A stretch of DNA of 64,000 nt from Thermoplasmatota archaeon (lineage in GTDB: Archaea; Thermoplasmatota; E2; JACPAO01; JAHFTW01): contig JBFIHX010000002.1 in assembly GCA_041601615.1 (NCBI GenBank), positions 192,001-256,000 on the forward strand. Reading direction: 5' to 3'. The notes below the pieces were generated by a model. It searched no databases and was not told the DNA's origin. It saw only the letters and a list, made by a program, of their open reading frames with translations. The first letter of the stretch is position 1. Each line of letters opens with the position of its first letter. The position numbers and the translations under genes are program-made. Below, one piece after another: positions 18,328-44,337 of the stretch.

Positions 18328-18328
18328 C

Positions 18329-29036: not shown

Positions 29037-29077
29037 AGCTGGGACACCGCGTGGGCCATCATAACACGCCGCACGGA

Positions 29078-29290: not shown

Positions 29291-29364
29291 GGGCTGCTAG
29301 CTTAGTCAGGTAGAGCATCGGACTCTTAATCCGACGGTCGCCGGTTCGAACCCGGTGCAGCCCG
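29291..29364 (+). tRNA. tRNA-Lys(CTT)
   Basis: Cloverleaf with acceptor GGGCTGC/GCAGCCC, anticodon arm TCGGA-CTCTTAA-TCCGA and TTCGAA T-loop; no CCA. Confidence 0.95.
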
Positions 29365-29491
29365 CCTACCCTCCGTCTTCCAGGGACACTTTTTGATTCG
29401 CTGTAGCGGGTCGCTTGGCGGGATTTTTGCTGGGCGCAACGAAGGAAATTGAGGAAGAAGGAGGGGGCGGCACGTGATGGCGGGTCGTGGC

Positions 29492-29995
29492 CTAGGCGGC
29501 GTTTTCGACGTTGGGTTCGATTTCCACCATGACGGTCGTTGCTTCCACGTTGGCGCCGGTTGTGACGTGGACGCGGCTGACGGTGCCGGTCATGGGGGAT
29601 TTGAGGTCGTTTTGCATCTTCATGGCTTCCAGCACGAGGATGATGGCGCCTTCTTCGACGGGGTCGCCTTCTTTGACGCGCACTTCGACGATCTTGCCGG
29701 GCATGGGGGGTTTGATTTTGCCGTCTTTGCGGCGGCCGGCGCCTCCGGCTCGTACTAGCTCGGGTTTGGCGCGGCGGATTTCGAGGTCCAGGACGGTGCG
29801 GTCGAGGAGGAAGTTGCCGTCTTCGATGCGGAATTCGAAGCTGTCGCCTTCGAGGGTTGCGCGGTAGTGGCTGGGGCCGAGGCGTTCGACTTCGGGTTGG
29901 AAGCTGGTGCCTTCGACGAGGAAGCGCGGGCCTTCGGCGTGTTCTTCGAGTTGGACGTAGTGGGTGCGTCCGTCGAGTTTGAATCCGTAGCGCAT
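29492..29995 (-). CDS. accB: Biotin carboxyl carrier protein
   Basis: PMPGKI and LEAMKMQN biotinylation motif; TAATG overlap. Confidence 0.92.
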   Translation of the reverse strand: MRYGFKLDGRTHYVQLEEHAEGPRFLVEGTSFQPEVERLGPSHYRATLEGDSFEFRIEDGNFLLDRTVLDLEIRRAKPELVRAGGAGRRKDGKIKPPMPGKIVEVRVKEGDPVEEGAIILVLEAMKMQNDLKSPMTGTVSRVHVTTGANVEATTVMVEIEPNVENAA

Positions 29996-31566
29996 TAGTT
30001 CCACACTCCTGAGTTTTCGCGGCGGGCTCGTTGGCCCCATGAGTTGAGCACGCGGCGGCCGTGTTCGTCTGCGTCGCCGTTGGCACTCTTGAAGCCGTAA
30101 TTGCGGTTGACGAAGGCGTCGATGCCGCCGGGTTCTTGGCTCATGGCTGCGGCGAGGGCGGCCAGCAGTTTGCGGGTGCCGGCGTCGGTTTCTTCGGCTA
30201 CTCCGTTGTAGCGCTCGAGGACGTTGTGTTCGTCGAGGTACTTGGTGGTCATGTCGCCGGCGCAGAAGGGCGCGTCTTCCATCAGGAGTTGGTGCAGGCC
30301 GCGGTTGGTGACGAGGTCGCCGAGGTCGTATTCGGCAAGTGCGCGGCGCATTTTGCGGATGGCGTCGGGGCGGTCGCTGCCGGTGACGATGAGCTTTGCG
30401 ACCATGCTGTCGTAGCTGCTGGGGACTTTGAGGCCGGCGTAGAGGAAGGTGTCGACGCGCACGCCGTTTCCTTGTGGGGGGGCGTGGCGTTTGATGGTGC
30501 CGGGGGTGGGCATGAAGTTTTGGCCCGGGTCTTCGGCGTTGATGCGGCATTCGATGCTCCAGCCGCGTTTGCGGGCGTCCACGGTGGCCTGATCGTAGCC
30601 CAGGGGTTCGCCTGCGGCGACACGGATCTGTTCGCGCACGAGGTCCATGCCGTACACTTGTTCGGTGACGGGGTGTTCGACTTGCAGGCGGGTGTTGACT
30701 TCGTTGAAGTAGAATTCGCCGTTCTCGTAGAGGAATTCGGCGGTGCCGGCGTTGGTGTATCCGACGGTCTTCGCGAGGGCACACACGGCGGCTCCGACGC
30801 GGGCGCGGTCTTCGTCGGTGACGATGGGGCTGGGTGCTTCTTCGATGAGTTTCTGGTGGCGGCGCTGGATGCTGCATTCGCGCTCGCCAAAGTGGACGGC
30901 GTTGCCGTGGGTGTCGGCGAGCAATTGGATTTCGATGTGGCGGGGTCGGCCGATGAATTTCTCGATGAAGCATTCGTGGCGGCCGAAGGCGGCTTTGGCT
31001 TGGCGTTGTGTTGCGCCGAGGGCTTCTTCGAGGTCCGCTTCGGATTTGACGACGCGCATGCCCATGCCGCCTCCTCCGAAGGCTGCTTTGATGATGACGG
31101 GGTAGCCGGCGACATCTGCTGCGACTTTGGCTTCTTCGAAGGTCTCGACGAATTGGTCGAGGCCGGGAACGACCGGGACGCCGGCGGCGCGGGCGGCTTC
31201 TTTGCTGGCCACTTTGTCGCCGAGGATGCGGATGGCGCTAGCGGGTGGGCCGATGAAGGTGATGCCGGCCTTTGTCAGGGCGTCTACGAAGTCGGCGCGT
31301 TCGGAGAGGAACCCGTAGCCGGGGTGGACGGCGTCGGCGCCGCTCTTGAGGCAGGTTTCGACGATGGCGTCGATGTCGAGGTAGTTGGTGGCGGCGGATT
31401 CGTCGCCGAGGAGGTATGCTTCGTCGGCAAACTTGACGTGTGCAGATTGGGCGTCTTGGGGCGAGTGGATGGCGACGGTCTTGATGCCGAGTTCGCGCGC
31501 GGTGCGCATGACGCGCAGGGCAATCTCGCCGCGGTTGGCGACTAGGATCTTCGTGATTTCAGGCAT
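29995..31566 (-). CDS. accC: Biotin carboxylase subunit of acyl-CoA carboxylase
   Basis: LVANRGEIA, HPGYGFLSE, GGGGMGM, ERECSIQRRHQK and EVNTRLQVEH. Confidence 0.95.
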   Translation of the reverse strand: MPEITKILVANRGEIALRVMRTARELGIKTVAIHSPQDAQSAHVKFADEAYLLGDESAATNYLDIDAIVETCLKSGADAVHPGYGFLSERADFVDALTKAGITFIGPPASAIRILGDKVASKEAARAAGVPVVPGLDQFVETFEEAKVAADVAGYPVIIKAAFGGGGMGMRVVKSEADLEEALGATQRQAKAAFGRHECFIEKFIGRPRHIEIQLLADTHGNAVHFGERECSIQRRHQKLIEEAPSPIVTDEDRARVGAAVCALAKTVGYTNAGTAEFLYENGEFYFNEVNTRLQVEHPVTEQVYGMDLVREQIRVAAGEPLGYDQATVDARKRGWSIECRINAEDPGQNFMPTPGTIKRHAPPQGNGVRVDTFLYAGLKVPSSYDSMVAKLIVTGSDRPDAIRKMRRALAEYDLGDLVTNRGLHQLLMEDAPFCAGDMTTKYLDEHNVLERYNGVAEETDAGTRKLLAALAAAMSQEPGGIDAFVNRNYGFKSANGDADEHGRRVLNSWGQRARRENSGVWN

Positions 31567-32437
31567 GGAGGGTCTCCGGTTCAGAGGATGAGGGGGAGGG
31601 GAGAGAAGCGGTGGGGGGAGGGGATGGGAGGAAGGGCAGGGTGAGGGCGACGGCGAGTCCGGCCTTGACGATGTCGAAGGGCAGGAAGACGGTGCTGCCG
31701 AGTGCGATGGATTGGATGAGGGTGTAGGGTGTGAGGGCCCAGAGGACGGTGACGCCGCAGGCGTGCAGAAGCAGGAGCGTGCCTAGCATCACGAGCCAGA
31801 GGTTGGCGGCTGCGGCGCCTTCGCCGCGTTTGTTGCCAAGCAGGACGTAGGTGAGGCCGAGGCTTGTGAGGGTGATGAATGCGAGGGCCCAGAGGGTGCT
31901 GGCGCCGACGCCGAAGTCGGCTTCGAGGCCGGTGCCGGTGCGGTTCATCCAGGCGATGACGGCGACGGCGGCGACCAGCGATACGGCCACCAGTGCCACC
32001 AGAGCGACGAGCAGGCGGTGGGGTAGGTGTGGGCGGCGGTGTTGCATGTATCTGCTAACGAGTGCTGCGACGAGTACGAAGCCGAACAGGTAGCCGGCGG
32101 TGGCGCCGACGAAGTGTTGTAATCCGCTAGCGCCTTGGGCAAAGACTGGGGCGCCGAGGGCTCCGGCGGCAAGATAGATGAGCACGGAAAGGGCGGCCAA
32201 GCCGGGCTTTTGGTAGCCGCCGGCCACCAGCAGCGCGAAGGGCATCATGGAGAAGGGCACGGGAGTCCAAGGCAGCGGGAAGCTGATTTGTGCCATGAGG
32301 GCCAGGAATCCTGCAAAGCCGAGGCTGGTGGCGAGGCGCACGGGCCAGCCGGGGACCGTGGGCGTTGCTAGGAGGTGCGACAGCACTTGCTCGTTCTGGC
32401 CCATGCGGGCGCCACATTCAGCCCCGGGTTTAGGCAT
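31559..32437 (-). CDS. bioY: Biotin transporter BioY with extra TM insertion
   Basis: PLP.TPVPF, YL..GA.GAPVFA, T.GYL.GF and FLPFD..K. Confidence 0.88.
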   Translation of the reverse strand: MPKPGAECGARMGQNEQVLSHLLATPTVPGWPVRLATSLGFAGFLALMAQISFPLPWTPVPFSMMPFALLVAGGYQKPGLAALSVLIYLAAGALGAPVFAQGASGLQHFVGATAGYLFGFVLVAALVSRYMQHRRPHLPHRLLVALVALVAVSLVAAVAVIAWMNRTGTGLEADFGVGASTLWALAFITLTSLGLTYVLLGNKRGEGAAAANLWLVMLGTLLLLHACGVTVLWALTPYTLIQSIALGSTVFLPFDIVKAGLAVALTLPFLPSPPPTASLPSPSSSEPETLHA

Positions 32438-35400
32438 GGCTGGCGGTCTCCGGTTCTTCGGTCATGGGGTCGAAGTCGGCGAGGCTCACGGCGAGTACGC
32501 GGCCTTCGATGCTCCAGAAGCGCACGCCGAAGGTGCCGTCGGGGCCGGTGACGGTTGCTCCTCCGGCGCCGTCGGGCATGACGGTCCAGGCGCGTAGCGC
32601 GGAGCGGAGGCCTGTGCCGGTGCGTTTGAAGACGGCTTCTTTGGCGGCCCACATGCAGGCAGCGGCGTTGTCGTCGGCGGCTACGGGGGCTTCGGTGTCG
32701 TTGAAGGCTTCTTCGCGCCAGGCGGCGGATCGCTGTTTGACGGTTTCGAGGTCGATGCCGAGGGCGGTGGGGGCCAGGGCTGCGATGGCGAGGCCGTCGC
32801 GGTGGGTCAGGCTGAGTTCGTAGTTGGCTGCTTTTCCGTGTAAGTGCAGGACCGGTTTGCCGCCATCGGAGTTGACCACCGTGACCTCAAGCGCGGAGAC
32901 GTTGGCTCCGGCTGCGATGGCGACTGCTTTGGCGGCGAGTCGTCCGGCGCGCCATTCTTCGGCGCGCTTGGGGGCCTTGAACGCTTCTGCGGTGCCGAGT
33001 TCTTCTTCCGTGAACCATTGGGGGTCGGGGTCTGCGTCGGCGACGGGGACGGCGGCAAACAGGGCGCCGGTGTCGTCGGGAAGGCCGAGGTCCACGGTGG
33101 GAATGGGGACGGCTTCGGGTTCTGCCGAGGCGGCGGCGGGCGTGCTTTCGGACAGGGTTTTTTGCACGGGTGCGGCGGAGTTGTCCGTGGCTTGGGGTTC
33201 CGACAGTTCCACGATTGGCTTGGGCGTCGCGTCCTTGTCTGCGTGCCCGTTTTGGTGGCCGTTGGTGGGTTCGGATGCCGCTGGAGGCGCGGGGGTGTCG
33301 GTGTCGCTGCCGGGGACGTCTCCGGTTTCGACCATGCCGTATTGGACCATGCGGACGAGGACGGCGCCGTCTTCGGTGCAGGCGGCGGCGTCGAAGCGGT
33401 AGAGGCCGTTGTCGTCGCGACCGGCAAATCGAGTCCAGAGTCGTGTTTCCTTGGGCAGGGGCCCGTAGTGCAGGATGTCCAGGCGTTCGATGGCAGCGGG
33501 CAGGCTCATGCGGCCATCGACGGTCATGGTGCGCAGACCGCAGACCTGGAACAGGGCTTCCACGAGCAGCGGGTGGACGTGCCATTCTGGCGATGTTCCT
33601 TCAAGCACGGGCGCTTCGGGGGTGACGCCGATGCCGACGCTTTCGTCGTCGAGTGGGCCGGCGTAGCGTAGCACTTGGAAGCTTGGGCCGTGGAAGAATG
33701 GCGGGTAGATCGAAGCGTGGTCGCGGTCGCGGGTGCAGGCGGGCACTTCGCTGGTGCGGCGGGGGGCTGCGGCGGCGCCGAAGTGGATCGTGGCGGCAAA
33801 GTGGGTCCGTGGCTCGCCGCGTTCTTTGCCGTCAGGGCCGACCATGCGGCTCCAGAGCGTGCAGGTGATTCCGTCGCCTTCGGCGGCGCGGGTTGCGGTG
33901 ATGCGGGCCACGGCGGGGCGGTCCTTGAGTTGCTTTAGGGGGATGCCGAAGGAGGCGTTGGTCACACGAGTACAGACGGTGTCGGCGGGTGCAAGAAGGG
34001 AGGCTGTCTCGGCGAAGGCTTCGAGGCCAAACACGCCGGGCAGGTAGGGCACGCCGTCGATGGCGTGATCGCGAGCGTAGGCTTGGGTCGCTTGGTCCAT
34101 TTCGATGCGCGTGGTCACCGAGTCGGCCGTTGCGGTCTCGACGCCGGCCAGAAGCGCGAACCGTTCGGGTGCGGATTCCATGCGGGCTTGGTGTTCGCCG
34201 AGGCGCGGGTCCCATGCAGCGTCGACCACTTGGCCGTCGGCGTCGATGGCGCCCACGTTCCCAGCGACGACCGATTCGCGGATGCCGGGGGTGCCTAGTT
34301 CGGCGAGGAATTGGGCGACTCCGTCGGCGGTGGGGATCGGAGTCACACCGGTGCTTTCCATGATTTGCAGGATGCTGCCTTTGGTCGCCATGCCCACTTC
34401 GCCCCAGGGGCCCCATGCGATGGTGAATGCGGTGGGGACGTTGCGCTCGGCTGCGGCGACTTGGACGGCCTTGCAGAGGTATTCGTTGGCGGCGCTGTAG
34501 TCGGTTTGGCCGATGTTGCCAAAGCGTCCGGCGACACTGCCGAAGGCCACCAAAAATTCGAGCTCGTCTTCGGCGGTGGCGGCCATGAGGGCGTTCCAGC
34601 CGTCGTGTTTGATGCCAAAAACCCAGTCGAATTGCTCGCGGTCCTTCGAGGCGAGGTCTTTGCTGATTTCGACGCCGGCTGCATGGATGACGCCGTGGAT
34701 GGCGCCGAATCGTTCGCGTGCGTGGTCGAGGGCTTCGCGCACGGCGTCGTGGTCGGTGACGTCGACGCTTGCGTAGGTCACTTCGGCGCCAAGATCCGAG
34801 AGGCGTTGCAGGTTGCGTTGCACTTCGGCGGCTTTGCGAAGTGGCGACATGGCTTTCTGAATCGACACCGGGGTGACCTTGGCGCCGGCTTCCTTCATCG
34901 CGGCCATTTGGCGTTGTTCTTCGGCCTTCCACTCATCGTCCGTCCAGCTGGCCCAGGTTTCGGCTTCTTCGGCCATGGTGGTGCGGCCAAGCAGCATGAA
35001 GTTGGGGTGTTGCGGTGCGAGGGCGGCCAGGAGTTCGACGGTGATGCCTTGGGCACCGCCGGGAACGATGAGGGTCTTGCCGGAGACATTCGGGGTGCCT
35101 TCGAGCGCTTCGGGAGCTACGTCGATGACAAACCGGGTACCCTCCGCGTCAAAGGCAATCTCGGTGCGGCGGCCGCCTTCGATGACTTCGGCAAGCACCA
35201 TGGCGGGGGCGTCCGAAAGTTTGGGGTGGAGATCGATGACCTTGACCACGGCGCCTTCGAATTCCTTTTTGAGTGCCTTGCCGAAACCGGCCACGGCGGC
35301 CATGGTGGCGTCGCGGGGAGCCGCCAATCCGTGGGCTCCGTCTTGGCGAGTGACGACTGCGACGAAGCCGTTTTTGAGGGCGTTTTGGTGCGCTTTGGCG

Positions 35401-38400
35401 GCGTCGAACATGGGTCCGAGGCGAGCGGGAGCGGAGTCCCCGCGTCGCGTGGCGAGGCACAGCAGACCGACGGGGGTGTCGTCGTCGTGCAGGCGGAAGG
35501 TTGGCTTCCAGCCGGCTTCTTTCCAGGCGTCCAGGAATGCGGTGTCGGCGTCGCCGACCACGAGGAGGGTTCCTTTGGCAAGGTCGTTGCTTTGGTGGGG
35601 GCTGGGGGCGGGGCGCACCGTGGGCACGCGGCGAACGATCGCTTGGCTGGGCTCAGAGGCCGTGGTCGCATCTGCCGTGGCATCGGCGGCGGGCGCGTCG
35701 GTTGCGCCGGCGTTGCTTGCCATATATGCGGCGACCTTGGCGAGGGTGTTGTAGTCCTTGAGTTGCAGGTCCTCGCGCATCGGGACGCTGAAGCGGTCGC
35801 GCAGTTCGCCAAACAGTTCGGCTTGCTTGACGGTGTCAATGCCAAGGTCTGCTTCCATGTCCAGTTCGGGTTCGAGCATGTCCACGGGGTAGCCGGTTTT
35901 ATCGGCCACGAGGGCGATGACTTGGGCCAGTACGTCGGCGGTGTCGGTGCCGGCCGTGGATGCGGCAGCGGGCGCTGGCGTCGAAACCACAGTGGCGACG
36001 GGCGCAGCGGCGCTTGCTCCTCCACCCATATATGCCGCGACTTTTCGCAGCGTGTTGTAGTCGGCGAGGCTCAGGTTTTCGTCGAGCGGGACGCCGAAGT
36101 GATCGCGCAGTTCGCCAAACAGTTCGGCTTGTTTGACGGTGTCGATGCCGAGGTCTGCTTCCATGTCGAGATCCGCTTCGAGCATCTCGACGGGGTAGCC
36201 GGTTTTGTCCGCGATGACGGCGGTGACCTTGGCAAGCACTGCATCGTCGGTCTCGGCGGTGGTCGCGGAAACCGGTGTCGCGGGTGCGGCGGCAGCCGGC
36301 GAGGCGGCGGCGGGTGCACTTTCTGCGGTGGCGACGGGCGCGGCGGTGCTGCCTCCCACGCCAAGCCCGACTTGCGTCGGACTCGGCCGCGCCGAAACTT
36401 CGCTTTGCGAAGTTCCGCCACCCATGTACTCGGCCACTTTGCGCAGGGTGTTGTAGTCCTTGAGTTGGAGATTTTCGTCGAGCGGCACGCCGAAGCGGTC
36501 GCGCAGTTCGCCAAACAGTTCGGCTTGTTTGACGGTGTCGATGCCGAGGTCCGCTTCCATGTCGAGGTCGGCTTCGAGCATCTCGGGTGGGTAGCCGGTT
36601 TTTTCGGCCACGAGGGCGGTTACGTCGGCCAGCACATCGGTTTCGGGTGCGGTTTGTGCGGCGGCGGGAACGGGGGCGGGCGATGCGACCTCTGCGGCGG
36701 CGATGGGCGCGGAGTTGCTTGTTCCTCCAGCCATATATCCCGCGACCTTGCGCAGGGTGTTGTAGTCCTTCAAGGACAGCGATTCGTCCAGGGGCACGCC
36801 GAAGGTCTCGCGAAGCTCGCCAAACAGTTCGGCTTGCTTGACGGTGTCAATGCCGAGGTCCGCTTCCATGTCCAGATCTGCTTCGAGCATCTCAGGCGGG
36901 TAGCCGGTCTTGGAGGCGACGAGGTCCGTCACTTTCTGCAGCACGTCGGCTTCGTCTGCGACCACGACAGGCGAGGCGACTGCGGCGACGGGGGCAGGTT
37001 CGGCTGCTACCACGACAGCGGGTGCGGTGCGCTCGGGTGCTCCTTGGTCCACGATGCGCAGGGTGCGGTTTTGCACCTCGGTTGCGGCGGCGGGAAGGCC
37101 ACTGACGCTGGACAGCCAAGCGTCGTACTGGGCCTGGTTTGCCACGCGCTCGTCTTCGCGGGCCACGAGTTGGGTGAGGGTCATGGCGACTTGGCTGCCG
37201 AATCCGGCGGCGAGGCGTAAGGCGTAGCGCACGTCGTAGGCGCCGCCCTTGGACAGGTTGAGGTCGCCCAGTTCGGGGTCGGGGTCGCGGAAGTTGGCGA
37301 TGGGGGGCACGGTGCCGCGTTGGAGTGCCTTGAGGGCAATCGCATCTTCAACGCCGGCACCTTGTGGGTGTCCCGTGAAGCCCTTGGTGTTGGCGATGAC
37401 GACCTTGTTGGCGTTGGTGCCGAAGGTCGCGCGCAGGGCGTGGATTTCTGCCGAGGCCGAGCCGCCGCGTGCGGGGGTGTAGGTCTCGTGGCTCATGAAC
37501 ATGGTCTGGGCCGCGATGGCGTCGGCGTGGATGCCGTACCGGGCGCCGGCTTTGGCCATGAGGCCCTGCATGCATTGGCTGATGTGGTCCACGTCGAGGC
37601 GGCTGCCGTGGAAGGCGCTGTTTGCGACGGTGGTGGCCAGGAGTTTGGCGATGGGTCGCATGCCGCGTGCTTCGGTTTCGGGGGTGGCTTCGATGACGAG
37701 GCCGACGGCGCCCATGCCGACAATCATGCCATGGCGCCGAGCGTCGAAGGGAAGGGCTGCGTCTTCTACGCGGTTTTTGGTCGTCGCGGCGCCGGAGGCC
37801 AGGAATCCGCTGCCGATCCATTCGAAGAGGGCGTCGCTGGTTACATCGTCGGCGCCGACTACGAGTACGCGTTTGCAGCGGCCGGTGCGAATCCAGTCTT
37901 CGGCGACGGTGATGGCTTGGGTGGTGCTGGCGCAGGCGGCGTTGAGTTGGGTGTTGGGTCCGCGAGCACCGATGAATTGCGCGAGTTGCGCGTGTCCCAT
38001 ACTTAGGACGTTGAACAGGAATTTGCGGTTGAATTCGTAGCGGGCAGCGCCGTGGTCGGGCAGCACGTCTTGCAGGCGGGCAAATTCCGCTTCAAAGCCG
38101 GTGGTGAGGTTGTTGCGTAGGTCGTCGTCGGTAACTTGGCCAAGCAGTTCGTCGTAGAGGTTGCGCAGGTCGTCGAGGGTGCGGCCGGCGTATTTGTCGG
38201 CAAGGTATCTGCTGATGTCGCGCACGAGGTTGTCGATGCCGGGGAAGGCGCTGGCAAACACGATGCCTGTGTCGTCGCGCATGGGTTCGGGCAGTTTCCA
38301 GTCCTTGGGCAGGTGGCTGCCGGTGGTGGTTTGGAGGTAGGTGCGCTGGAGCGGGATGCCTGCGTCGCGTAGTGCTTCGAGGCCGGCGGCGATGGCGTAT

Positions 38401-41400
38401 TGGAAGGTGCGGTCGAGGGTGGAGGCGAAGTCGGCGTCGACGCCCCATTCGGTGACGTCGAAGTCGCCGCGGCGGCCTGCGAGTTGGATGACTTGGGCGA
38501 TGTCGTCGATGGCTTGGAAGGTGCCTTGGCCGCCGCCGCCTTTGACGAGGCGGACGATGTTTTTGCTGGCCATTTTTTGCTGCTCGGTTTCGGGCAGGGC
38601 GTCGATGAGGTTGTCGCCGCGCAGGATGCGGTCCCAGTCGTCGGTGGCAAAGAGTGGTTTGTGGGTGCCGGGGAGTCCAACACTGATGCCGCTGATGCCG
38701 ATGTCGTCGAGGTTGATGCCGAAGGCGTCCATCTTCGCCTTTAGTAGCAATTCGCTACTGTTTGGTAGGTTTTTGCTACTAAGGGCTGCGACGGGGGCTG
38801 GGGCGCTGGTGGCTACGGCGGAGGCGGGTGCGGAGTTTGTGGTCGGAGTCGGAGTGGAGGGGGCGGCGGGCGAGGAGCTCATGCCGTCGAGGGTGCGGGC
38901 TAGGTCGCGAAGGGCGCCGGCGATGATGTCGATGCGGGCGTCGGCCACGGGTGCGGGCGCGGCTGCGGGGGCGGCTTGGGCGAGGGCGCTCGTGGTGCGG
39001 GTGAAGGCGGTTTTGGGCTCGCGGAATTCTGCGGTGTAGACGGCGGAGTCGTTGAGGTCCGGGAGCTTGGGAAGGTAGCCCCAGGCGCCGAGGAAGGCAA
39101 ACAGTTCGTTGATGTGTTGGATTCCGCCCTTTTTGGGGTGGTTGGCGCAGATGGCGACGGCGTCGCCTTTGCTGCCGAGGATGTCGTAGGCGAATCCGGT
39201 GAGCGCCTTCTTGGGGCCCACTTCGATGAAGGTGCGCACACCTTCGCTGTACATGCGCTCCATGATGTCGATCCATTCGACGGGGCTTGCCACTTGCACG
39301 GCGAGGTTGTCGCGGATGGCTTCGGGGTCGTTGCCGTAGGGTTCGGCGCCGACGTTGCTGAGGATGCGGACCTTGGGGGCTTGCACGTCGAGGCGGGCCA
39401 ATACGTTGCGCAGGGGTTTGCTTGCGGGGGCGACGATGTCGCTGTGGAAGGCGGCGCTGACGGGCAGTGGGATGCACTGGAGGCCTTGTGCGGTGAGTTT
39501 GGCCATGGCGGCGTCCACTCCGGCGCTGCTGCCGGCGATGACGGTTTGGCTGGGGCAGTTTTTGTTGGCGCAGATGACGTATTCGTCTACGTCGGCGATG
39601 GCGGCGGACACGGTTTCCCAGTCGGCGGGGATGCTGGCCATTTTGCCAAGGTCGGGAAGATCCACGTTGGCCATTTCGCGGCCGCGTGCGGCGACGGCGT
39701 GGAGCGCGTCGGCGAAGGTGAGGACGCCGGCTGCGACCAGGGCGCCGTATTCGCCGAGTGAGTGTCCGGCGACCACGTCGGGTTGGATGCCCCATTGCTT
39801 CATCATGCGAAGCAGGGCGACGTCCATGGCAAGAACGGCGGGCTGGGTGAACTCGGTGAGTTTGAGTTTTTCTTCGGAGGCGGCGCGGTTTTCGGCGGTG
39901 TCTGGGGTGGGCCAGAGGATGTCGGTGAGTTTGACGCCGTCCAGTTCGTCGTGGAGGACTGCGTCGGCTTCTTCGAAGGTGTGTTTGACGACGGCGTATT
40001 TTTGGGCAAGGTCGCGGCCCATGTTGACGTACTGGGTGCCTTGGCCGGGGAATAGGAAGGCGACTTTGCCGCGTGGTTCGCCTTGGCCTAGAAATACGCC
40101 TTGGTTGAAGGCGAGTTTGGCGACGGCGGATTGGGTGGCGGCTTTGGCGGCGAGTTCCAGCTTCTTGGGGATTTCGTCAAGGTCCGTGGGGGCGATGCCG
40201 ACGCGGCGCTCGGCGCGTACACCGGCTTGGGTGAGTTCGTAGAAGGCGGCGCGGTAGCGGGGGCCGTTGCCGGTCTTGGCGAAGGTCACGGCCGAGGGAA
40301 GCGCGGTGAGGCTTGCGGGGAGGGCGTCGGCGTCTAGGACGAGCGGAGTCTGTTCTAGTGCGGCGGCTTGCTCCATGTGGGAAGCAAAGCCGGCGGCGTC
40401 GAAGGTGGTCATGGGGATGGTCGCCTCGGGTTGCGTCGTGGCGGACGGAGGGGTGGGGGCTGTGGCGGCGGTGGGCGCCGGGGCGGGGATGGGTGCGGAG
40501 TTGCGGGTGGCGGGGTCCACGAATTGGAGGGCGCCGGGAACGTATTGTTCGAGGACGACGTGGAAGTTGGTGCCGCCGAATCCGAAGCTGCTGACGGCGG
40601 CGCGGCGCGGGTGGTCGGCAGGGGTTTCCCAGGGCGTTCGGGACGTTGCGACTTGGAAGGGGCTGGTGGCCCATTCGATTGCGGGGTTGAGGGTCTGGAC
40701 GTTGATGCTGGGTGGAATGATGCCTTCGCGCACGGCGAGCACGGCCTTGAGCATCCCGGCGGCGCCGGCGGCGGCCTTGAGGTGGCCGATGTTGCTTTTG
40801 ACGGATCCGACGCGGATGCTGCCGACGGGTACGTCGGCGGCGCGGATCTGTTGGAACGCTTCGCGCACCGAATTGAGTTCGACGGGGTCGCCAACGGGGG
40901 TGCTGGTGCCGTGGGCTTCGACGTAGCCGACGGTGTAGGGGTCCATTTCGGCTTCTTCATAGGCGCGGCGTACGGCTTTGACTTGGCCGCGCGGGTTGGG
41001 GGCGGTGATTCCCTTGCCTTTGCCGTCGCTGCTGCCGCCAACGCCTCGGATGACGGCGTGGATGCGGTCGCCGTCGCGTTCGGCGTCGCCGAGGCGTTTG
41101 AGGATGAACATGGCGCAGCCTTCGCCCATGACGAATCCGTTGGCGCCGGCGTCGAAGGGCCGGCTGCCGTCGGGCGACAGGGCTCCGATGGCGCTGAATT
41201 GGATGTAGGGCGTGATGTCCATGCTGCGGTCGGTGCCGCCCCAGACGACGAGGTCGCTTTCGGCGTCACGAAGAGAGTCGATGGCGGCGTCGAGGGCCGC
41301 AAGGGAGGACGCGCAGGCGGCGTCGGTGGTGAAGTTCTTGCCCCCGAGGTCGAACACGTTGGCGATGCGGCCGGCGACCACGTTGGACAGGTGCCCCGGC

Positions 41401-41981
41401 ATGGTGTCTTCGGTGACGGGGACGGTGTTGGCTTTGTAGCGCGCTTCGGCGCGGTCGAGCATCGCCGCCCGATCGCTGCTGCTGAGGTGTTGGAAGGTCT
41501 CATCGGCTTCGATGGCGGCGCGGGCTTCGGGCCAGAAGAGGCGTTTGGTGGCAATTTTGTTGGATTCGCCGCCCATGGCGTTGCCGATGATGACGGCGGT
41601 GCGGTTGCGGTCGAAGTCGCGTCCGGGTGCGTCGCCTCGGATGCCGGTTGCGAGTCCCGCGTCGAGGAGTGCTTGGCGGGCGGCCGACAGCGCCCACTGT
41701 TGGCTTTGGTCCACCTGTTTTTGCACTTGTGGCGGCATGCGGTATTCGAGGCCCTGGAAGTTGTCGTCGCTGACGAAGGCGCCGATTTTGGCGTAGGTTT
41801 TGTCTGGTGTTTTTGCCGAGTCGTAGTAGAGCGCGGTGTCCCAGCGGGTGGGCGGGACTTCGCGGATGCTGTTGCGGCCCTCGACGAGGTTGTTCCAGAA
41901 GGTTGGAATGTCGGGGGCGTCGGGCAGGACGCAGCCCAGGCCGATGATGGCGATGGGCTCCTTGGTGACGGTGTCGGACAT
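32430..41981 (-). CDS. Type I iterative PKS/FAS-like megasynthase: KS-AT-KS-4xACP-KR-DH-PPTase
   Basis: KS1 DAACASS/HGTST/NIGH; AT GQG.Q, GHSLG, AFHS; KS2 NAACAST/SHET/TGH; 4x LGIDTVKQ; KR GGAQGI..YSAAN; DH H.IDG...LPG; PPTase GIDLE..WAAKEA..K. Confidence 0.92.
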   Translation of the reverse strand: MSDTVTKEPIAIIGLGCVLPDAPDIPTFWNNLVEGRNSIREVPPTRWDTALYYDSAKTPDKTYAKIGAFVSDDNFQGLEYRMPPQVQKQVDQSQQWALSAARQALLDAGLATGIRGDAPGRDFDRNRTAVIIGNAMGGESNKIATKRLFWPEARAAIEADETFQHLSSSDRAAMLDRAEARYKANTVPVTEDTMPGHLSNVVAGRIANVFDLGGKNFTTDAACASSLAALDAAIDSLRDAESDLVVWGGTDRSMDITPYIQFSAIGALSPDGSRPFDAGANGFVMGEGCAMFILKRLGDAERDGDRIHAVIRGVGGSSDGKGKGITAPNPRGQVKAVRRAYEEAEMDPYTVGYVEAHGTSTPVGDPVELNSVREAFQQIRAADVPVGSIRVGSVKSNIGHLKAAAGAAGMLKAVLAVREGIIPPSINVQTLNPAIEWATSPFQVATSRTPWETPADHPRRAAVSSFGFGGTNFHVVLEQYVPGALQFVDPATRNSAPIPAPAPTAATAPTPPSATTQPEATIPMTTFDAAGFASHMEQAAALEQTPLVLDADALPASLTALPSAVTFAKTGNGPRYRAAFYELTQAGVRAERRVGIAPTDLDEIPKKLELAAKAATQSAVAKLAFNQGVFLGQGEPRGKVAFLFPGQGTQYVNMGRDLAQKYAVVKHTFEEADAVLHDELDGVKLTDILWPTPDTAENRAASEEKLKLTEFTQPAVLAMDVALLRMMKQWGIQPDVVAGHSLGEYGALVAAGVLTFADALHAVAARGREMANVDLPDLGKMASIPADWETVSAAIADVDEYVICANKNCPSQTVIAGSSAGVDAAMAKLTAQGLQCIPLPVSAAFHSDIVAPASKPLRNVLARLDVQAPKVRILSNVGAEPYGNDPEAIRDNLAVQVASPVEWIDIMERMYSEGVRTFIEVGPKKALTGFAYDILGSKGDAVAICANHPKKGGIQHINELFAFLGAWGYLPKLPDLNDSAVYTAEFREPKTAFTRTTSALAQAAPAAAPAPVADARIDIIAGALRDLARTLDGMSSSPAAPSTPTPTTNSAPASAVATSAPAPVAALSSKNLPNSSELLLKAKMDAFGINLDDIGISGISVGLPGTHKPLFATDDWDRILRGDNLIDALPETEQQKMASKNIVRLVKGGGGQGTFQAIDDIAQVIQLAGRRGDFDVTEWGVDADFASTLDRTFQYAIAAGLEALRDAGIPLQRTYLQTTTGSHLPKDWKLPEPMRDDTGIVFASAFPGIDNLVRDISRYLADKYAGRTLDDLRNLYDELLGQVTDDDLRNNLTTGFEAEFARLQDVLPDHGAARYEFNRKFLFNVLSMGHAQLAQFIGARGPNTQLNAACASTTQAITVAEDWIRTGRCKRVLVVGADDVTSDALFEWIGSGFLASGAATTKNRVEDAALPFDARRHGMIVGMGAVGLVIEATPETEARGMRPIAKLLATTVANSAFHGSRLDVDHISQCMQGLMAKAGARYGIHADAIAAQTMFMSHETYTPARGGSASAEIHALRATFGTNANKVVIANTKGFTGHPQGAGVEDAIALKALQRGTVPPIANFRDPDPELGDLNLSKGGAYDVRYALRLAAGFGSQVAMTLTQLVAREDERVANQAQYDAWLSSVSGLPAAATEVQNRTLRIVDQGAPERTAPAVVVAAEPAPVAAVASPVVVADEADVLQKVTDLVASKTGYPPEMLEADLDMEADLGIDTVKQAELFGELRETFGVPLDESLSLKDYNTLRKVAGYMAGGTSNSAPIAAAEVASPAPVPAAAQTAPETDVLADVTALVAEKTGYPPEMLEADLDMEADLGIDTVKQAELFGELRDRFGVPLDENLQLKDYNTLRKVAEYMGGGTSQSEVSARPSPTQVGLGVGGSTAAPVATAESAPAAASPAAAAPATPVSATTAETDDAVLAKVTAVIADKTGYPVEMLEADLDMEADLGIDTVKQAELFGELRDHFGVPLDENLSLADYNTLRKVAAYMGGGASAAAPVATVVSTPAPAAASTAGTDTADVLAQVIALVADKTGYPVDMLEPELDMEADLGIDTVKQAELFGELRDRFSVPMREDLQLKDYNTLAKVAAYMASNAGATDAPAADATADATTASEPSQAIVRRVPTVRPAPSPHQSNDLAKGTLLVVGDADTAFLDAWKEAGWKPTFRLHDDDTPVGLLCLATRRGDSAPARLGPMFDAAKAHQNALKNGFVAVVTRQDGAHGLAAPRDATMAAVAGFGKALKKEFEGAVVKVIDLHPKLSDAPAMVLAEVIEGGRRTEIAFDAEGTRFVIDVAPEALEGTPNVSGKTLIVPGGAQGITVELLAALAPQHPNFMLLGRTTMAEEAETWASWTDDEWKAEEQRQMAAMKEAGAKVTPVSIQKAMSPLRKAAEVQRNLQRLSDLGAEVTYASVDVTDHDAVREALDHARERFGAIHGVIHAAGVEISKDLASKDREQFDWVFGIKHDGWNALMAATAEDELEFLVAFGSVAGRFGNIGQTDYSAANEYLCKAVQVAAAERNVPTAFTIAWGPWGEVGMATKGSILQIMESTGVTPIPTADGVAQFLAELGTPGIRESVVAGNVGAIDADGQVVDAAWDPRLGEHQARMESAPERFALLAGVETATADSVTTRIEMDQATQAYARDHAIDGVPYLPGVFGLEAFAETASLLAPADTVCTRVTNASFGIPLKQLKDRPAVARITATRAAEGDGITCTLWSRMVGPDGKERGEPRTHFAATIHFGAAAAPRRTSEVPACTRDRDHASIYPPFFHGPSFQVLRYAGPLDDESVGIGVTPEAPVLEGTSPEWHVHPLLVEALFQVCGLRTMTVDGRMSLPAAIERLDILHYGPLPKETRLWTRFAGRDDNGLYRFDAAACTEDGAVLVRMVQYGMVETGDVPGSDTDTPAPPAASEPTNGHQNGHADKDATPKPIVELSEPQATDNSAAPVQKTLSESTPAAASAEPEAVPIPTVDLGLPDDTGALFAAVPVADADPDPQWFTEEELGTAEAFKAPKRAEEWRAGRLAAKAVAIAAGANVSALEVTVVNSDGGKPVLHLHGKAANYELSLTHRDGLAIAALAPTALGIDLETVKQRSAAWREEAFNDTEAPVAADDNAAACMWAAKEAVFKRTGTGLRSALRAWTVMPDGAGGATVTGPDGTFGVRFWSIEGRVLAVSLADFDPMTEEPETASHA
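35720..36955 (-). repeat. Four tandem near-identical ACP-coding repeats with Ala/Pro-rich linkers
   Basis: KTGYP.EMLE..LDMEADLGIDTVKQAELFGELR..F.VP....L.L.DYNTL repeated four times. Confidence 0.9.
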
Positions 41982-42092
41982 GGTTGGGGGCTCCGTGGGC
42001 GGGGTCGGAGGGGAACGGGAGAGGCGGGGGGTTGGAAAAAGGACTGGACTGATGGAGGTCGGGTCGGCGGGCGCCGACGGGGGGCTGGGGGG

Positions 42093-43703
42093 TTAGAGGG
42101 GGGTGAGGCCGTGCTTCTTGGCGGGCCGGGTTTCGCGCTTTTGCAGGAGCGGTAGCAGGGCTGCGATGAGGCGGGGCCGGGTCTCGCGGGGTTCGATGAT
42201 GTCGTCGATCCAGCCGCGTTCGGCCGCGACATACGGATTGGCGAATTTGCGTTCGTATTCAGCGGTGAATTCGGCTTTGCGTGCCTCGGCTGCGGCGGGG
42301 TCGGTTTTGGCAAGTTCCATGAGTTCGCGCCGGTGCAAGATTTCCACGGCGCCGCTGCCGCCCATGACGGCGATTTCGGTGCCGGGCCAGGCGAGGTTGC
42401 AGTCGCTTCCCACGTGCTTCGAGGACATGACGATGTAGGCGCCGCCGTAGGATTTGCGCAGAACCACGGAGAGCTTGGGCACGGTGGCTTCACAGTAGGC
42501 GTACAGGAGTTTGGCTCCGTTGCGGATGATGCCGCCGTGTTCCTGGCCAAGGCCGGGCAGGAAGCCGGGCACGTCCACGAAGCTGACGATCGGGATGTTG
42601 AAGGCGTCGCAGAAGCGGATGAATTTGGCGCCTTTGATGCTGGCTTCGATGTCGAGGGCACCGGCGAGGACGGCGGGTTGGTTGGCGACGATGCCGACGG
42701 GGATGCCGTCGAGGCGGCTGAAGCCAATGACGAGGTTTTGGGCCCACTTGGGTTGAATTTCTAGGAACGAATCGGTGTCCACTACGCGCTTGACGACGTC
42801 GCGCACGTCGTAGGGTTTGTTGGCGTTGGAGGGGACGATGTTGTCCAATTCGGGGTCCATGCGGCCGCGTGCGTCGCCGGGGTTTTCCTTGATGGGGAGG
42901 TCGGCGAGGTTGTTGGCGGGAATGTAGCTGAGAAGTTTGCGGATGAGGAAGATGCTGTCGTCTTCGTCGACGCCGCTGAAGCTTGCGACACCGGATTTTA
43001 CGGTGTGGACGCTGCTGCCGCCGAGTTCCTCTTGGCTGGCTTCTTCGCCGGTGACGGTCTTGACCACGTCGGGGCCGGTGACGAACATGTGGCTGGTGTC
43101 GTCCGTCATGATGACGAAGTCGGTGAGGGCGGGGGAGTACACGGCGCCGCCGGCAGAAGGGCCGACGATGACCGAAATCTGCGGCACTACGCCGCTGGCC
43201 TTGACGTTCCTGAAGAAAATGTCACCGTAGCCGGCAAGGCTTGCCACACCTTCTTGGATGCGTGCGCCGCCAGAGTCATTGAAGCCGATGACGGGGGCTC
43301 CGATGGCGAGCGCCTGGTCGAGGACTTTGGCAATTTTTTGCCCGGTTTGGTAGCCGAGGCTGCCGCCGAGGACGGTGAAGTCTTGGGCGTAAGTGAAGAT
43401 GACTTGGCCGTTGATGGTGCCGTGGCCGGTGACGACGCCGTCGCCGTCGAAGGCGTGACGATCCATGCCAAAGTCGGTGGATTGGGTGCGCACGTAGGGA
43501 TCCATCTCTACGAAGGAGCCTGGATCGAGCAGAAGTTCGATGCGTTCGCGGGCGGTGTATTTTCCCTTCTTGTGTTGCGCTTCGATGCGAGCTGCCCCGC
43601 CTCCCATGTGTGCCTTGGCGCGGCGTTCGCGCAGGATTTCCACGGGGGAGGGCTTGATGTGGCCGTTCGTAGCCTGGGGGCTCGCGGGGACGGTCTTGGC
43701 CAT
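42093..43703 (-). CDS. pccB: Acyl-CoA carboxylase carboxyltransferase (PccB-like)
   Basis: ARERI..LLD.GSF, DSGGARIQEG, GGAVYSPALTD, DVPGFLPG and K.YGGAY; ATG at 43703. Confidence 0.93.
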   Translation of the reverse strand: MAKTVPASPQATNGHIKPSPVEILRERRAKAHMGGGAARIEAQHKKGKYTARERIELLLDPGSFVEMDPYVRTQSTDFGMDRHAFDGDGVVTGHGTINGQVIFTYAQDFTVLGGSLGYQTGQKIAKVLDQALAIGAPVIGFNDSGGARIQEGVASLAGYGDIFFRNVKASGVVPQISVIVGPSAGGAVYSPALTDFVIMTDDTSHMFVTGPDVVKTVTGEEASQEELGGSSVHTVKSGVASFSGVDEDDSIFLIRKLLSYIPANNLADLPIKENPGDARGRMDPELDNIVPSNANKPYDVRDVVKRVVDTDSFLEIQPKWAQNLVIGFSRLDGIPVGIVANQPAVLAGALDIEASIKGAKFIRFCDAFNIPIVSFVDVPGFLPGLGQEHGGIIRNGAKLLYAYCEATVPKLSVVLRKSYGGAYIVMSSKHVGSDCNLAWPGTEIAVMGGSGAVEILHRRELMELAKTDPAAAEARKAEFTAEYERKFANPYVAAERGWIDDIIEPRETRPRLIAALLPLLQKRETRPAKKHGLTPL

Positions 43704-43722
43704 GGCTTTGCGGGGCCGGGGA

Positions 43723-43730
43723 TCATATAT
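43723..43730 (-). promoter_or_regulatory. TATA-like box for the carboxylase/PKS operon
   Basis: ATATATGA 20-27 nt upstream of ATG 43703. Confidence 0.45.
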
Positions 43731-43893
43731 CAGGCTTCGCGTAGAATTTTCCGGCAATGGTAGGGAATCGGGTGCCCGCGGTTCGGCAATTGTCGTTTGG
43801 TGCACTGACTGGTTGGGCTGACTCGAACATGTCAAGGGTCAAAGCCGCCGCTTGGGCGGTCGTTGCAGCGCGTTGCATTGGGTGTTGCTGGGC

Positions 43894-44337
43894 CTAGACT
43901 TGCAGCACCGTAATCGTGTCCGTCATGGACCCGTGCACGCGGCAATGGTACGGAAATTCGCCCGCCTCGGTGAACGTAAACGAGAACTCGGAGTTGGCAA
44001 ATTCGCTCATGCAGGTGTTGCCGGGGCATGCGCCAGAATCGAACGTCCCGCCGCCTGCGGTGACCGAGTGCGGAATGGCGCCGTCTTCGTGCGTCCAGAC
44101 GACTTTATCGCCCACTTGAATCGTCAGCGACCCCTCGACGAAGTCATTGCCTGCGATGCTGATGTGCCAGGTCAGAGGCTCCTGGCGGGGTGCTGGCGGC
44201 GTGGGGGTTGGTGCGGGCGGTGGGTCCGTGGAGTTTTGGTCTGGATTGGGGTCCGGGTCGGGGTCGCCGTCGTCGCCCCCAAAACAACCGGTCAGCAGCA
44301 TCAGCAGGACAGCCAAAACCGAAGCAAGGGCGCGCAT
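43894..44337 (-). CDS. Cupredoxin (halocyanin/plastocyanin-like) lipoprotein
   Basis: Lipobox LLTGC; type-1 Cu ligands PHSV...YHCRVHGSM. Confidence 0.88.
   Translation of the reverse strand: MRALASVLAVLLMLLTGCFGGDDGDPDPDPNPDQNSTDPPPAPTPTPPAPRQEPLTWHISIAGNDFVEGSLTIQVGDKVVWTHEDGAIPHSVTAGGGTFDSGACPGNTCMSEFANSEFSFTFTEAGEFPYHCRVHGSMTDTITVLQV

What the first reader, a model, noticed from the sequence alone, without database searches (positions are those of the whole stretch)
29492..43703. Self-contained fatty-acid/polyketide operon in an archaeon: carboxylase, type I megasynthase, biotin uptake and self-priming
Seen: co-oriented pccB, PKS, bioY, accC and accB; the last four genes overlap (8-, 8- and 1-nt overlaps), and there is a TATA-like box before pccB. 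Codon usage resembles housekeeping genes such as purA, and the neighbours are archaeal markers. Established: archaeal membranes are isoprenoid ethers, and ACP-dependent type I FAS/PKS are rare in archaea; the AT AFHS motif is typical of malonyl-CoA selection. Inference: a naturalised pathway that supplies malonyl-CoA to an iterative synthase making an unknown acyl lipid or polyketide, relevant to the archaeal/bacterial lipid divide.
Basis: partly seen in the sequence, partly recalled or inferred. Interest (0 to 1): 0.82.

Follow-up and report, generated by a model that had tools for sequence, protein, structure and literature searches.

The report
Archaeal Type R fatty-acid-like megasynthase operon
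An uncultured marine archaeon carries a native five-gene operon for a giant fatty-acid/polyketide-type synthase and its malonyl-CoA supply; the enzyme type was already catalogued in bacteria, has no known product, and proves common in this archaeal phylum.

Summary
Five co-oriented minus-strand genes lie at 29492-43703: a carboxyltransferase, a 3183-aa synthase, BioY, AccC and BCCP. Gene overlaps are 8, 8 and 1 nt.

The synthase reads KS-AT-KS'-4xACP-KR-DH-PPTase. This is the "Type R secondary lipid synthase" that Shulse & Allen catalogued in bacteria in 2011, with no product assigned there. It is not a new architecture.

The locus is not a chimera:
- An archaeal 16S fragment lies on the same 351-kb contig.
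- Depth is flat across the operon and both junctions.
- 36 of 38 genomes of the organism's order carry the synthase, with the same carboxyltransferase linkage in those examined.

New here, as far as my searches reach:
- The family is widespread in Thermoplasmatota: 132 of 401 sampled genomes, including 58 of 58 in one Poseidoniales family.
- A FabI-type enoyl reductase occurs in 101 of the 132 synthase-bearing genomes and in none of the other 269. This argues for a reduced fatty-acyl product.
- Nearly every carrier domain in the family has threonine where the phosphopantetheine serine should be.

The product, chain release and cofactor attachment to threonine are all inferred, not shown.

The parts
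43725..43730 (-). TATA-like box (ATATAT) about 24 nt upstream of the carboxyltransferase ATG. Candidate archaeal promoter of a leaderless operon transcript.
   Evidence: Read directly. Similar boxes at similar spacing in L035, L036 and L038. Promoter function is inferred.
42093..43703 (-). Acyl-CoA carboxylase carboxyltransferase subunit (PccB/12S type), 536 aa.
   Evidence: PF01039 at 631 bits. TIGR01117 at 752 bits, below its 998.8 cut-off. A homologue sits directly upstream of the synthase in loci of families f1, f2, f3, f15 and f33.
32430..41981 (-). Type R PfaA-like iterative megasynthase, 3183 aa: KS-AT-KS'-4xACP-KR-DH-PPTase.
   Evidence: Pfam domains. TIGR02813 PfaA model at 1051.9 bits against a 1010.1 cut-off. 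Full-length relatives found.
40542..41960 (-). KS1 (aa 8-480). Cys223, His357 and His400 are invariant in the 19-sequence alignment.
39198..40058 (-). Acyltransferase (aa 642-928) with GHSLGE and SAAFHS motifs.
   Evidence: All 62 family sequences checked read GHSLGE.
37182..38696 (-). KS' (aa about 1096-1600). This is the domain called 'CLF' in the 2011 catalogue, but it keeps Cys1350, His1498 and His1538.
   Evidence: FabF-like PDB matches, best E 2e-26. Invariant residues. 632 representative proteins match it at E<=1e-30.
35727..36944 (-). Four tandem ACP domains (aa 1680-2085). Each reads LGIDTV, with Thr1713, 1816, 1948 and 2050 at the position of the phosphopantetheine serine.
   Evidence: PF00550, four stretches. 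Motif positions. The Thr aligns with the Ser of DSI/DSL in solved ACPs.
34401..35060 (-). Ketoreductase (aa 2308-2527).
   Evidence: PF08659 at 109 bits. Ser2482, Tyr2495 and Asn2499 invariant.
33333..34148 (-). PKS-type dehydratase (aa 2612-2883). His2639, Gly2643 and Pro2648 are conserved.
   Evidence: PF21089 and PF14765. Conserved residues.
32505..32762 (-). C-terminal 4'-phosphopantetheinyl transferase domain (aa 3074-3159).
   Evidence: PF01648 at 35.6 bits and 40.6 bits in the genome search. The same activity is a separate downstream gene in Poseidoniales and in 15 bacterial loci.
31559..32437 (-). BioY, the biotin transporter S component, 292 aa.
   Evidence: PF02632 at 93 bits. Found downstream of the synthase in 3 of 5 f1 loci and in the f2 locus.
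29995..31566 (-). Biotin carboxylase AccC, 523 aa.
   Evidence: PF02786, PF00289 and PF02785. NF006367 at 618 bits against a 597 cut-off.
29492..29995 (-). Biotin carboxyl carrier protein, 167 aa, containing the EAMKM motif.
   Evidence: PF00364 at 67 bits. Sequence read.

Best explanation
This is a vertically inherited archaeal member of the 'Type R' PfaA-like secondary-lipid synthase family, co-transcribed with its own malonyl-CoA supply.

Proposed mechanism, step by step:
1. AccC, BCCP and the carboxyltransferase carboxylate acetyl-CoA to malonyl-CoA. BioY imports the biotin they need.
2. The AT domain loads malonyl units onto four tandem carrier domains. The fused PPTase has previously primed these carriers.
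3. Two catalytically intact ketosynthases extend the chain iteratively.
4. KR and DH process each beta-keto group.
5. A FabI-type enoyl reductase encoded elsewhere in the genome (contig C11) reduces the enoyl intermediate.

The product would then be a largely saturated long-chain fatty acyl group rather than a polyene. It is probably passed to PlsB/PlsC-type acyltransferases.

Shown: the genes, the domains, their catalytic residues, the conservation, the linkage and the co-occurrence.
Inferred: the substrate, the role of FabI, the product, its release, and cofactor attachment to threonine.
For: Architecture and intact active sites. Catalytic residues are invariant in a 19-sequence alignment.

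Match to the published Type R description. The paper gives the same layout, including an ACC gene inside one cluster. Full-length relatives at 37-48% identity come from Acidobacteriota, Elusimicrobiota, Chloroflexota and other phyla.

Native and vertically inherited.
- 36 of 38 genomes of the order match the DH-PPTase tail. All 10 high-quality genomes match, and the two misses are each 74% complete.
- The order forms one clade in the synthase tree, with support 99.

Linkage to the carboxylase. The carboxyltransferase is adjacent to the synthase in 12 of 20 archaeal loci examined, drawn from five families.

Evidence that an enoyl reductase belongs to the pathway.
- The FabI-like gene of this genome has its best NCBIfam hits to FabI models, at 216-260 bits.
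- At E<=1e-40 it is found in 101 of 401 phylum genomes, all within the 132 that carry the synthase. It is found in 0 of the 269 without the synthase.
- In family f13, the same 13 of 36 genomes carry both genes.
- It lies directly beside the synthase in families f31, f13 and f15, and in one genus of the own family.
- Other lineages fuse a PfaD/FabK-like reductase to the synthase (family f33). Many bacteria place an acyl-CoA dehydrogenase, often with ETF, upstream: 35 and 19 of 100 loci.

Possible acceptors. Three PF01553 acyltransferases are present, one of them with a GPAT_C domain. None of the 4 archaeal control genomes has a PF01553 match.
Against: - No product is known for any member of the family.
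- No thioesterase or other release domain is present.
- FabI is unlinked to the synthase in this genome and in most of its family. It scores below the strict cut-offs of every NCBIfam FabI model.
- Three synthase-bearing families have no FabI-like gene at this threshold: f23 (0 of 24), f33 and f39.
- Related genomes are not independent, so the co-occurrence counts overstate the support.
- PlsC-like genes are more widespread than the synthase. In f13 they occur in 31 of 36 genomes against 13 of 36 for the synthase. In f28 they occur in 9 of 10 against 0 of 10.
- The PlsB-like gene is missing from 6 of 18 genomes of the own family.
- Threonine carriers have no demonstrated cofactor attachment.
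Confidence: 0.62

Rival explanations
1. The synthase works without an enoyl reductase and releases a conjugated polyene or hydroxy-polyene secondary metabolite, as enediyne PKSE enzymes do. FabI would be unrelated to it.
For: No ER domain lies in the protein or the operon. The DH is of the PKS type and the PPTase is C-terminal, both reminiscent of PKSE (the PKSE architecture is recalled, not tested). FabI is unlinked in this genome. Families f23 and f39 have the synthase but no FabI-like gene.
Against: FabI-like genes occur only in synthase-bearing genomes: 101 of 132 against 0 of 269. They are adjacent to the synthase in four lineages. Three different kinds of reductase are fused or linked to the synthase in different lineages. 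The dedicated carboxylase, the tandem carriers and the order-wide conservation fit a bulk lipid better than a niche metabolite. No enediyne-type accessory genes appear in the flanks.
Confidence: 0.15
2. It is a PfaA subunit of a canonical PUFA synthase making EPA- or DHA-type polyunsaturated fatty acids, in a marine archaeon.
For: The TIGR02813 PfaA model scores 1051.9 bits, just above its 1010.1 cut-off. Tandem carriers are present. The holding runs are marine metagenomes.
Against: The only other KS/AT-type gene in the genome is an NRPS-linked PKS. No FabA-type dehydratase/isomerase was found (0 matches). There is no convincing PfaD-type reductase: the best PF03060 match scores 30.5 bits over 65 positions. 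The genome is 93% complete, so absence is not proven.
Confidence: 0.05
3. The operon is a bacterial fragment joined to archaeal DNA by mis-assembly or mis-binning.
For: The family is abundant in bacteria. One family member from the same order is labelled 'bacterium' in its public record (P0028).
Against: The contig is 350,839 bases and carries an archaeal 16S fragment. GC3 matches the neighbouring genes. In run X1, depth is 26.6-42.6 in all 30 bins across 27500-46500, and contigs bridge both junctions. In other samples of the same study, identical pieces bridge 43558-44539 (X2) and 29336-30171 (X3). All of these runs come from one study, and X1 may be the source sample. The same gene order is seen in relatives' contigs of up to 449 kb.
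Confidence: 0.01

Closest known systems
Type R secondary lipid synthase cluster (Shulse & Allen 2011, PLoS One 6:e20146, PMC3098273). I read passages only.
   Same: One pfaA homologue with KS-MAT-second KS-like domain-ACP(3-6)-KR and an associated PPTase. An ACC gene sits inside the Koribacter cluster. It is scattered across distant phyla. No product is assigned. Relatives from the same phyla match over the full length at 37-48% identity.
   Different: - The paper lists only bacteria; the word 'archaea' occurs 0 times.
- Here the PPTase is fused, three carboxylase genes and bioY are co-transcribed, and a DH domain is recognised.
- The domain the paper calls CLF keeps Cys/His/His.
- The paper has 0 occurrences of 'threonine' or 'serine'.
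PfaA of bacterial pfaABCD PUFA synthases (NCBIfam TIGR02813)
   Same: KS-MAT-tandem ACP-KR-PKS-type DH. The HMM score passes the curated cut-off.
   Different: An extra KS lies between the AT and the ACPs, and a PPTase is fused. No PfaB, PfaC or PfaD partners and no FabA-type DH were found. The carriers read Thr, not Ser.
Enediyne polyketide synthase PKSE (architecture recalled, not from a call)
   Same: An iterative type I synthase with KS, AT, ACP, KR, DH and a C-terminal PPTase that primes its own carrier.
   Different: This synthase has a second KS and four carriers. No enediyne accessory genes lie nearby. No reference sequences were available to me for a KS phylogeny.
Archaeal/actinobacterial acyl-CoA carboxylase (AccC-AccB-PccB type)
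   Same: Three separate subunits with the expected domains and a biotin-attachment motif.
   Different: The set is split around the synthase gene and joined by bioY. The genome has further paralogues: a carboxyltransferase on C3 (62% identity), a carboxyltransferase on C6 (35%) and an AccC on C6 (54%). This set therefore looks dedicated to the synthase.

Membership tests
Type R secondary lipid synthase (Shulse & Allen 2011) | A single pfaA homologue with domain order KS-MAT-second KS-like ('CLF')-ACP(3-6)-KR | tested here: met
   Pfam and PDB searches give KS 8-480, AT 642-928, KS' about 1096-1600, four PP-binding stretches and KR 2308-2527. The definition is taken from the passages read.
Type R secondary lipid synthase (Shulse & Allen 2011) | A PPTase encoded with the synthase (a downstream gene in the paper) | tested here: met
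   PF01648 at aa 3074-3159, fused to the synthase. It is a separate downstream gene in Poseidoniales and in 15 bacterial loci.
Type R secondary lipid synthase (Shulse & Allen 2011) | Sequence kinship with members in Acidobacteria, Elusimicrobia and Chloroflexi | tested here: met
   Full-length tblastn matches at 37-48% identity to Korobacteraceae, Elusimicrobiaceae, Caldilineaceae and Ardenticatenaceae records. The five strains named in the paper were not themselves among the 80 loci kept.
Type R secondary lipid synthase (Shulse & Allen 2011) | The second KS-like domain is a true chain-length factor with no active-site Cys | tested here: not met
   Cys1350, His1498 and His1538 are invariant in 19 archaeal sequences. 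51 of 62 family sequences show both Cys motifs by regular expression. This is a mislabel in the catalogue, not a difference of this locus; earlier scan notes say the same.
PfaA of pfaABCD PUFA synthase | Score above the curated cut-off of TIGR02813 | tested here: met
   1051.9 bits against 1010.1.
PfaA of pfaABCD PUFA synthase | Partner subunits PfaB, PfaC (KS-CLF-FabA-type DH) and PfaD (ER) | tested here: not met
   tblastn of the synthase finds only itself and an NRPS-linked KS-AT. PF07977 gives 0 matches. The best PF03060 match scores 30.5 bits. Genome completeness is 93%.
Enediyne PKSE | KS-AT-single ACP-KR-DH-PPTase with enediyne accessory genes nearby (definition recalled) | tested here: not met
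   Two KS and four ACPs are present. The flanks hold no such genes. No PKSE-specific model or reference sequence was available.
Biotin-dependent acyl-CoA carboxylase | Biotin carboxylase, BCCP with a biotinyl-lysine motif, and carboxyltransferase | tested here: met
   Substrate (acetyl- versus propionyl-CoA) cannot be tested with these tools.
FabI enoyl-ACP reductase (the unlinked partner on C11) | Score above an NCBIfam FabI equivalog cut-off | tested here: inconclusive
   The top 12 hits are all FabI models at 186-260 bits, but each is below its cut-off of 299-477.

The most novel reading that the evidence does not exclude
Type R synthases, in archaea and bacteria alike, carry their 4'-phosphopantetheine on threonine instead of the otherwise universal serine. 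This would explain why a dedicated PPTase is always fused or adjacent.

In Thermoplasmatota, the synthase plus a FabI-type reductase would form a complete ACP-dependent de novo fatty acid synthase. Such an enzyme is held to be missing from archaea. It would feed PlsB/PlsC-type ester-lipid synthesis in cells that also keep G1PDH and GGGPS, giving a natural mixed-lipid archaeon.
Probability: 0.3. Interest if true: 0.85.

Novelty: new member of a known kind. Interest (0 to 1): 0.62.

Why it matters
Archaea are thought to lack ACP-dependent fatty acid synthesis. The claim that some planktonic Thermoplasmatota make fatty-acid ester lipids has rested on scattered 'bacterial-like' genes.

This locus and its relatives give that question a concrete and compact test object. 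It comprises one synthase gene, its carboxylase and a strictly co-occurring FabI gene. The synthase is conserved across a whole order and in all 58 sampled genomes of one Poseidoniales family.

The locus also points to a biochemical oddity of a very large enzyme family that has no assigned product: threonine at the carrier's cofactor site. A single mass-spectrometry experiment could settle that point.

Tried and rejected
Searches that failed or had to be redone.
I reran it on residues 2600-3183.
- The Atlas call with a part of the 3183-aa protein was rejected for length. I resent the part as a DNA reference. It gave only leads: KS-type clusters in Thermoplasmatota, Actinomycetota and Planctomycetota.

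Literature.
- I found nothing on a Thermoplasmatota or Marine Group II type I synthase beyond bulk surveys. One of these says T1PKS is the second largest biosynthetic cluster class in marine archaeal genomes (PMC10304266, passages).
- I found nothing on threonine carriers.
- No paper other than the original holds both 'Type R' and 'secondary lipid'.
- Passages of four Marine Group II papers mention fatty acid degradation or 'bacterial-like fatty acid genes', but not this enzyme.
- Villanueva et al. 2017 and Herlemann et al. 2009 are not held. They may already describe the gene in Marine Group II and in Elusimicrobium. Supplements were closed.

Solved structures. The KS-AT region matches only generic type I PKS entries. 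The PPTase matches only weak AcpS entries.

Phylogeny against references. I made no KS phylogeny against PfaA, HglE or PKSE, because no reference sequences were available to me.

Taxonomy. The nearest named record reads 'Thermoplasmata archaeon'.

Expression. No RNA holder was listed among the sequencing runs.

Low-GC island. No att-like direct repeat was found around it.

Cluster look-up. It gave almost no organism names.

Complex prediction. I did not run PPTase with ACP. A pass would not distinguish Thr from Ser.


Full report
THE OBSERVATION

The window is G000:C2:192001-256000 of a 2.79-Mb, 30-contig genome. The genome has GC 0.62, is 93% complete and 0.28% contaminated.

Five co-oriented genes lie on the minus strand:
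- a carboxyltransferase at 42093-43703;
- a 3183-aa synthase at 32430-41981;
- BioY at 31559-32437;
- AccC at 29995-31566;
- a biotin carboxyl carrier protein at 29492-29995.

The last four genes overlap by 8, 8 and 1 nt. A 111-nt gap separates the first two. An ATATAT box lies about 24 nt upstream of the first ATG. Three relatives of 11 inspected show a similar box at similar spacing; the other 8 were unresolved because their starts are uncertain.

IS IT REALLY ARCHAEAL DNA?

The evidence says yes.
- The same 350,839-base contig begins with an archaeal 16S fragment scoring 469.5 bits.
- Neighbouring genes include an archaeal-type D-aminoacyl-tRNA deacylase, DUF92 and a PIN-domain ATPase.
- GC3 of the operon genes is 0.78-0.80, like purA at 0.83. 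It is unlike the adjacent low-GC island at 0.55-0.64.
- Public contigs of four runs from one marine study cover 27500-46500 in all 30 bins. In run X1 (possibly the source sample) depth is 26.6-42.6, and contigs bridge 27500-31342 and 42590-46500 without a mismatch. In other samples, identical pieces bridge 43558-44539 (X2) and 29336-30171 (X3).

These runs come from a single study, so they are limited support. Together with the synteny described below, they make a chimera very unlikely.

WHAT THE SYNTHASE IS

Pfam, NCBIfam and PDB comparisons give this layout:
- KS at aa 8-480;
- AT at 642-928;
- a second FabF-like KS at about 1096-1600;
- four tandem ACPs at 1680-2085;
- KR at 2308-2527;
- a PKS-type DH at 2612-2883;
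- a PPTase at 3074-3159.

The catalytic residues of both KS domains, the AT, the KR and the DH are invariant in a 19-sequence alignment of archaeal members. The NCBIfam PfaA model scores 1051.9 bits, just above its 1010.1 cut-off.

The genome shows no PfaB, PfaC or PfaD partners and no FabA-type dehydratase. It is therefore not a canonical PUFA synthase.

The layout matches the 'Type R' secondary lipid synthase of Shulse & Allen 2011. That paper describes KS-MAT-CLF-ACP(3-6)-KR plus a PPTase gene, in Koribacter, Solibacter, Elusimicrobium and Roseiflexus. It assigns no product. In Koribacter, an ACC gene lies between the two genes (passages read).

The best 80 were mostly bacterial: Acidobacteriota, Chloroflexota, Actinomycetota, Myxococcota and Elusimicrobiota. 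They matched over nearly the full length at 37-48% identity.

The KS' domain alone has 632 representative relatives at E<=1e-30 in a library of 1.84 billion proteins.

Four earlier notes of this scan, on other genomes, reached the same 'Type R' filing. I checked the filing against the paper myself.

DISTRIBUTION IN ARCHAEA

I used the DH-PPTase tail (aa 2600-3183) as the query.
- In the organism's own order, 36 of 38 genomes match. All 10 high-quality genomes match, and the two misses are each 74% complete.
- None of the sampled genomes from other families of the same class match. For example, f4 gives 0 of 54, f10 gives 0 of 48 and f5 gives 0 of 14.
- Other classes of the phylum do match. Family f31 gives 58 of 58 and clusters with records named Poseidoniales. 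Family f13 gives 13 of 36. Family f15 gives 9 of 9. Family f23 gives 20 of 24; one of its sequences is identical to a record named EX4484-6.
- In total, 132 of 401 genomes match at E<=1e-8.

I built a tree of the KS-AT-KS' region. It had 62 rows: this protein, 20 archaeal loci, and 41 of the 79 named loci. I dropped the other 38 named loci because their largest reading frame was under 2500 aa.
- The own order forms one clade, with support 99.
- Families f15 and f33 join it, with support 98.
- Poseidoniales group next to a Myxococcota record.
- Families f39 and f23 group next to Elusimicrobiota.

An AU test weakly rejects a single archaeal clade (p = 0.0285). The tree is unrooted, so no direction of transfer can be stated.

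LINKAGE AND THE MISSING REDUCTASE

The carboxyltransferase gene lies directly upstream of the synthase in 12 of 20 archaeal loci examined. These come from families f1, f2, f3, f15 and f33. AccC and BCCP follow the synthase in all five f1 loci and in the f2 locus; bioY was also found there in three of the five f1 loci and in the f2 locus.

Neither the protein nor the operon contains an enoyl reductase. Relatives, however, attach one in three different ways:
- a FabI-like gene directly upstream, in Poseidoniales and in f15;
- a PfaD/FabK-like domain fused to the N-terminus, in f33;
- in bacteria, an acyl-CoA dehydrogenase (35 of 100 loci, 34 of them upstream on the same strand) with an ETF alpha subunit (19 loci).

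This genome has a FabI-like gene at C11:61019-61855. It is 48% identical to the Poseidoniales gene, and its best NCBIfam hits are all FabI models, though each is below its cut-off.

Across the same 401 genomes, this gene is found at E<=1e-40 in 101. All 101 lie within the 132 that carry the synthase. None of the 269 genomes without the synthase has it. In family f13, exactly the same 13 genomes carry both genes.

Related genomes are not independent, so this is not a statistical proof. The pattern is nevertheless strict across several families.

For this reason I favour a reduced fatty-acyl product over a polyene.

WHERE THE PRODUCT MIGHT GO

The genome has three PF01553 acyltransferases, one of them with a GPAT_C domain. 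None of the four archaeal control genomes has a PF01553 match.
- The PlsB-like gene occurs only in this order among the 401 genomes: f1 12 of 18, f2 1 of 1, f3 1 of 1.
- The PlsC-like gene occurs in every synthase-bearing family. It also occurs in some genomes without the synthase.
- No PlsY was found.
- G1PDH-like and GGGPS genes are present. The archaeal ether-lipid route is therefore kept.

Chain release and the acceptor remain inferences.

THREONINE CARRIERS

Every one of the four ACPs reads LGIDTV. The threonine aligns with the serine of the DSI/DSL motif in solved ACPs.

The same threonine is seen throughout the family:
- in 31 of 32 family proteins from the first search;
- in 19 of 20 archaeal loci, the twentieth having one Ser and five Thr;
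- as 208 Thr against 2 Ser motifs in 65 of the 79 named loci, most of them bacterial; the other 14 had no motif in their largest frame;
- as 334 Thr against 17 Ser in 148 family representatives, of which 116 are Thr only, 5 Ser only, 6 both and 21 have no motif.

In the same genome, the carriers of an unrelated NRPS-PKS cluster read Ser. A second, stand-alone PPTase lies near that cluster.

All catalytic domains of the synthase are conserved, and it has no Ser-bearing carrier. The threonine must therefore be the attachment site if the enzyme works at all. The occasional Ser at the same position in family members supports this. This is inference.

I found no mention of the feature in the Type R paper, which has 0 occurrences of 'threonine' or 'serine'. 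My literature searches and earlier scan notes also turned up nothing. My reach is limited and the feature may be known elsewhere.

VERDICT

Three points were wrong or incomplete:
- the architecture is already catalogued;
- the family is common in this phylum and in bacteria;
- the operon is not self-contained.

The locus is a new, archaeal member of a known family that has no assigned product. Its value lies in three things: the strict FabI co-occurrence, the breadth of the family in planktonic archaea, and the threonine carriers. Each of these can be tested directly.

Noticed in passing
window 18260-27957 (+), with 28488-29036 (-) and tRNA-Lys 29291-29366 (+): A Druantia-like defence operon in a low-GC island (GC 0.55-0.58). 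It comprises DruF (207.8 bits), a DruL4-like gene (101 bits), DruE (1879 aa, 1700.8 bits) and a DruM C5 methyltransferase (187.6 bits). An HTH_17 protein and tRNA-Lys lie beside it. No att-like direct repeat was found.
   Followed up: partly
G000 contig C1, about 340-352 kb (L004:8354-19973, minus strand) and C1:365483-365707: An NRPS (C-A-PCP x2-TE), an A-PCP protein and a KS-AT-ACP protein lie next to archaeal Hel308 and Cgi121 genes. A stand-alone PPTase lies about 13 kb away. The carriers of this cluster have the usual serine.
   Followed up: partly
G000 contig C4:71886-73433 (L128:769-2319, minus strand): A 516-aa PlsB-like acyltransferase (PF01553 plus GPAT_C). Among 401 genomes of the phylum it was found only in this order: f1 12 of 18, f2 1 of 1, f3 1 of 1.
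   Followed up: partly
L026-L028 (family f39), L029-L030 (family f33), L022, L024, L032: Variants of the synthase in other Thermoplasmatota lineages: two extra N-terminal ACPs (f39); an N-terminal PfaD/FabK-like reductase (f33); N-terminal extensions of about 340 aa with no Pfam match (f15, f23, f3); up to six tandem carriers.
   Followed up: no
window 42082-42715: In all four runs this bin of the carboxyltransferase gene has extra depth, for example 20.7 against about 5-8 in run X2. The likely cause is contigs of other organisms that share this conserved stretch.
   Followed up: no
window 45194-47017 (+) and 60962-63289 (-): Two large proteins with bacterial thrombospondin type 3 repeats, one also with a reprolysin-like metalloprotease motif. 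tRNA-Asp, tRNA-Asp and tRNA-Val cluster at 60292-60753.
   Followed up: no
P0066 (3234 aa) and 4 other representatives: A few members of the family carry Ser instead of Thr in all their carrier motifs; P0066 has five LGIDSV. They would make natural comparison points for a Thr-versus-Ser experiment.
   Followed up: no
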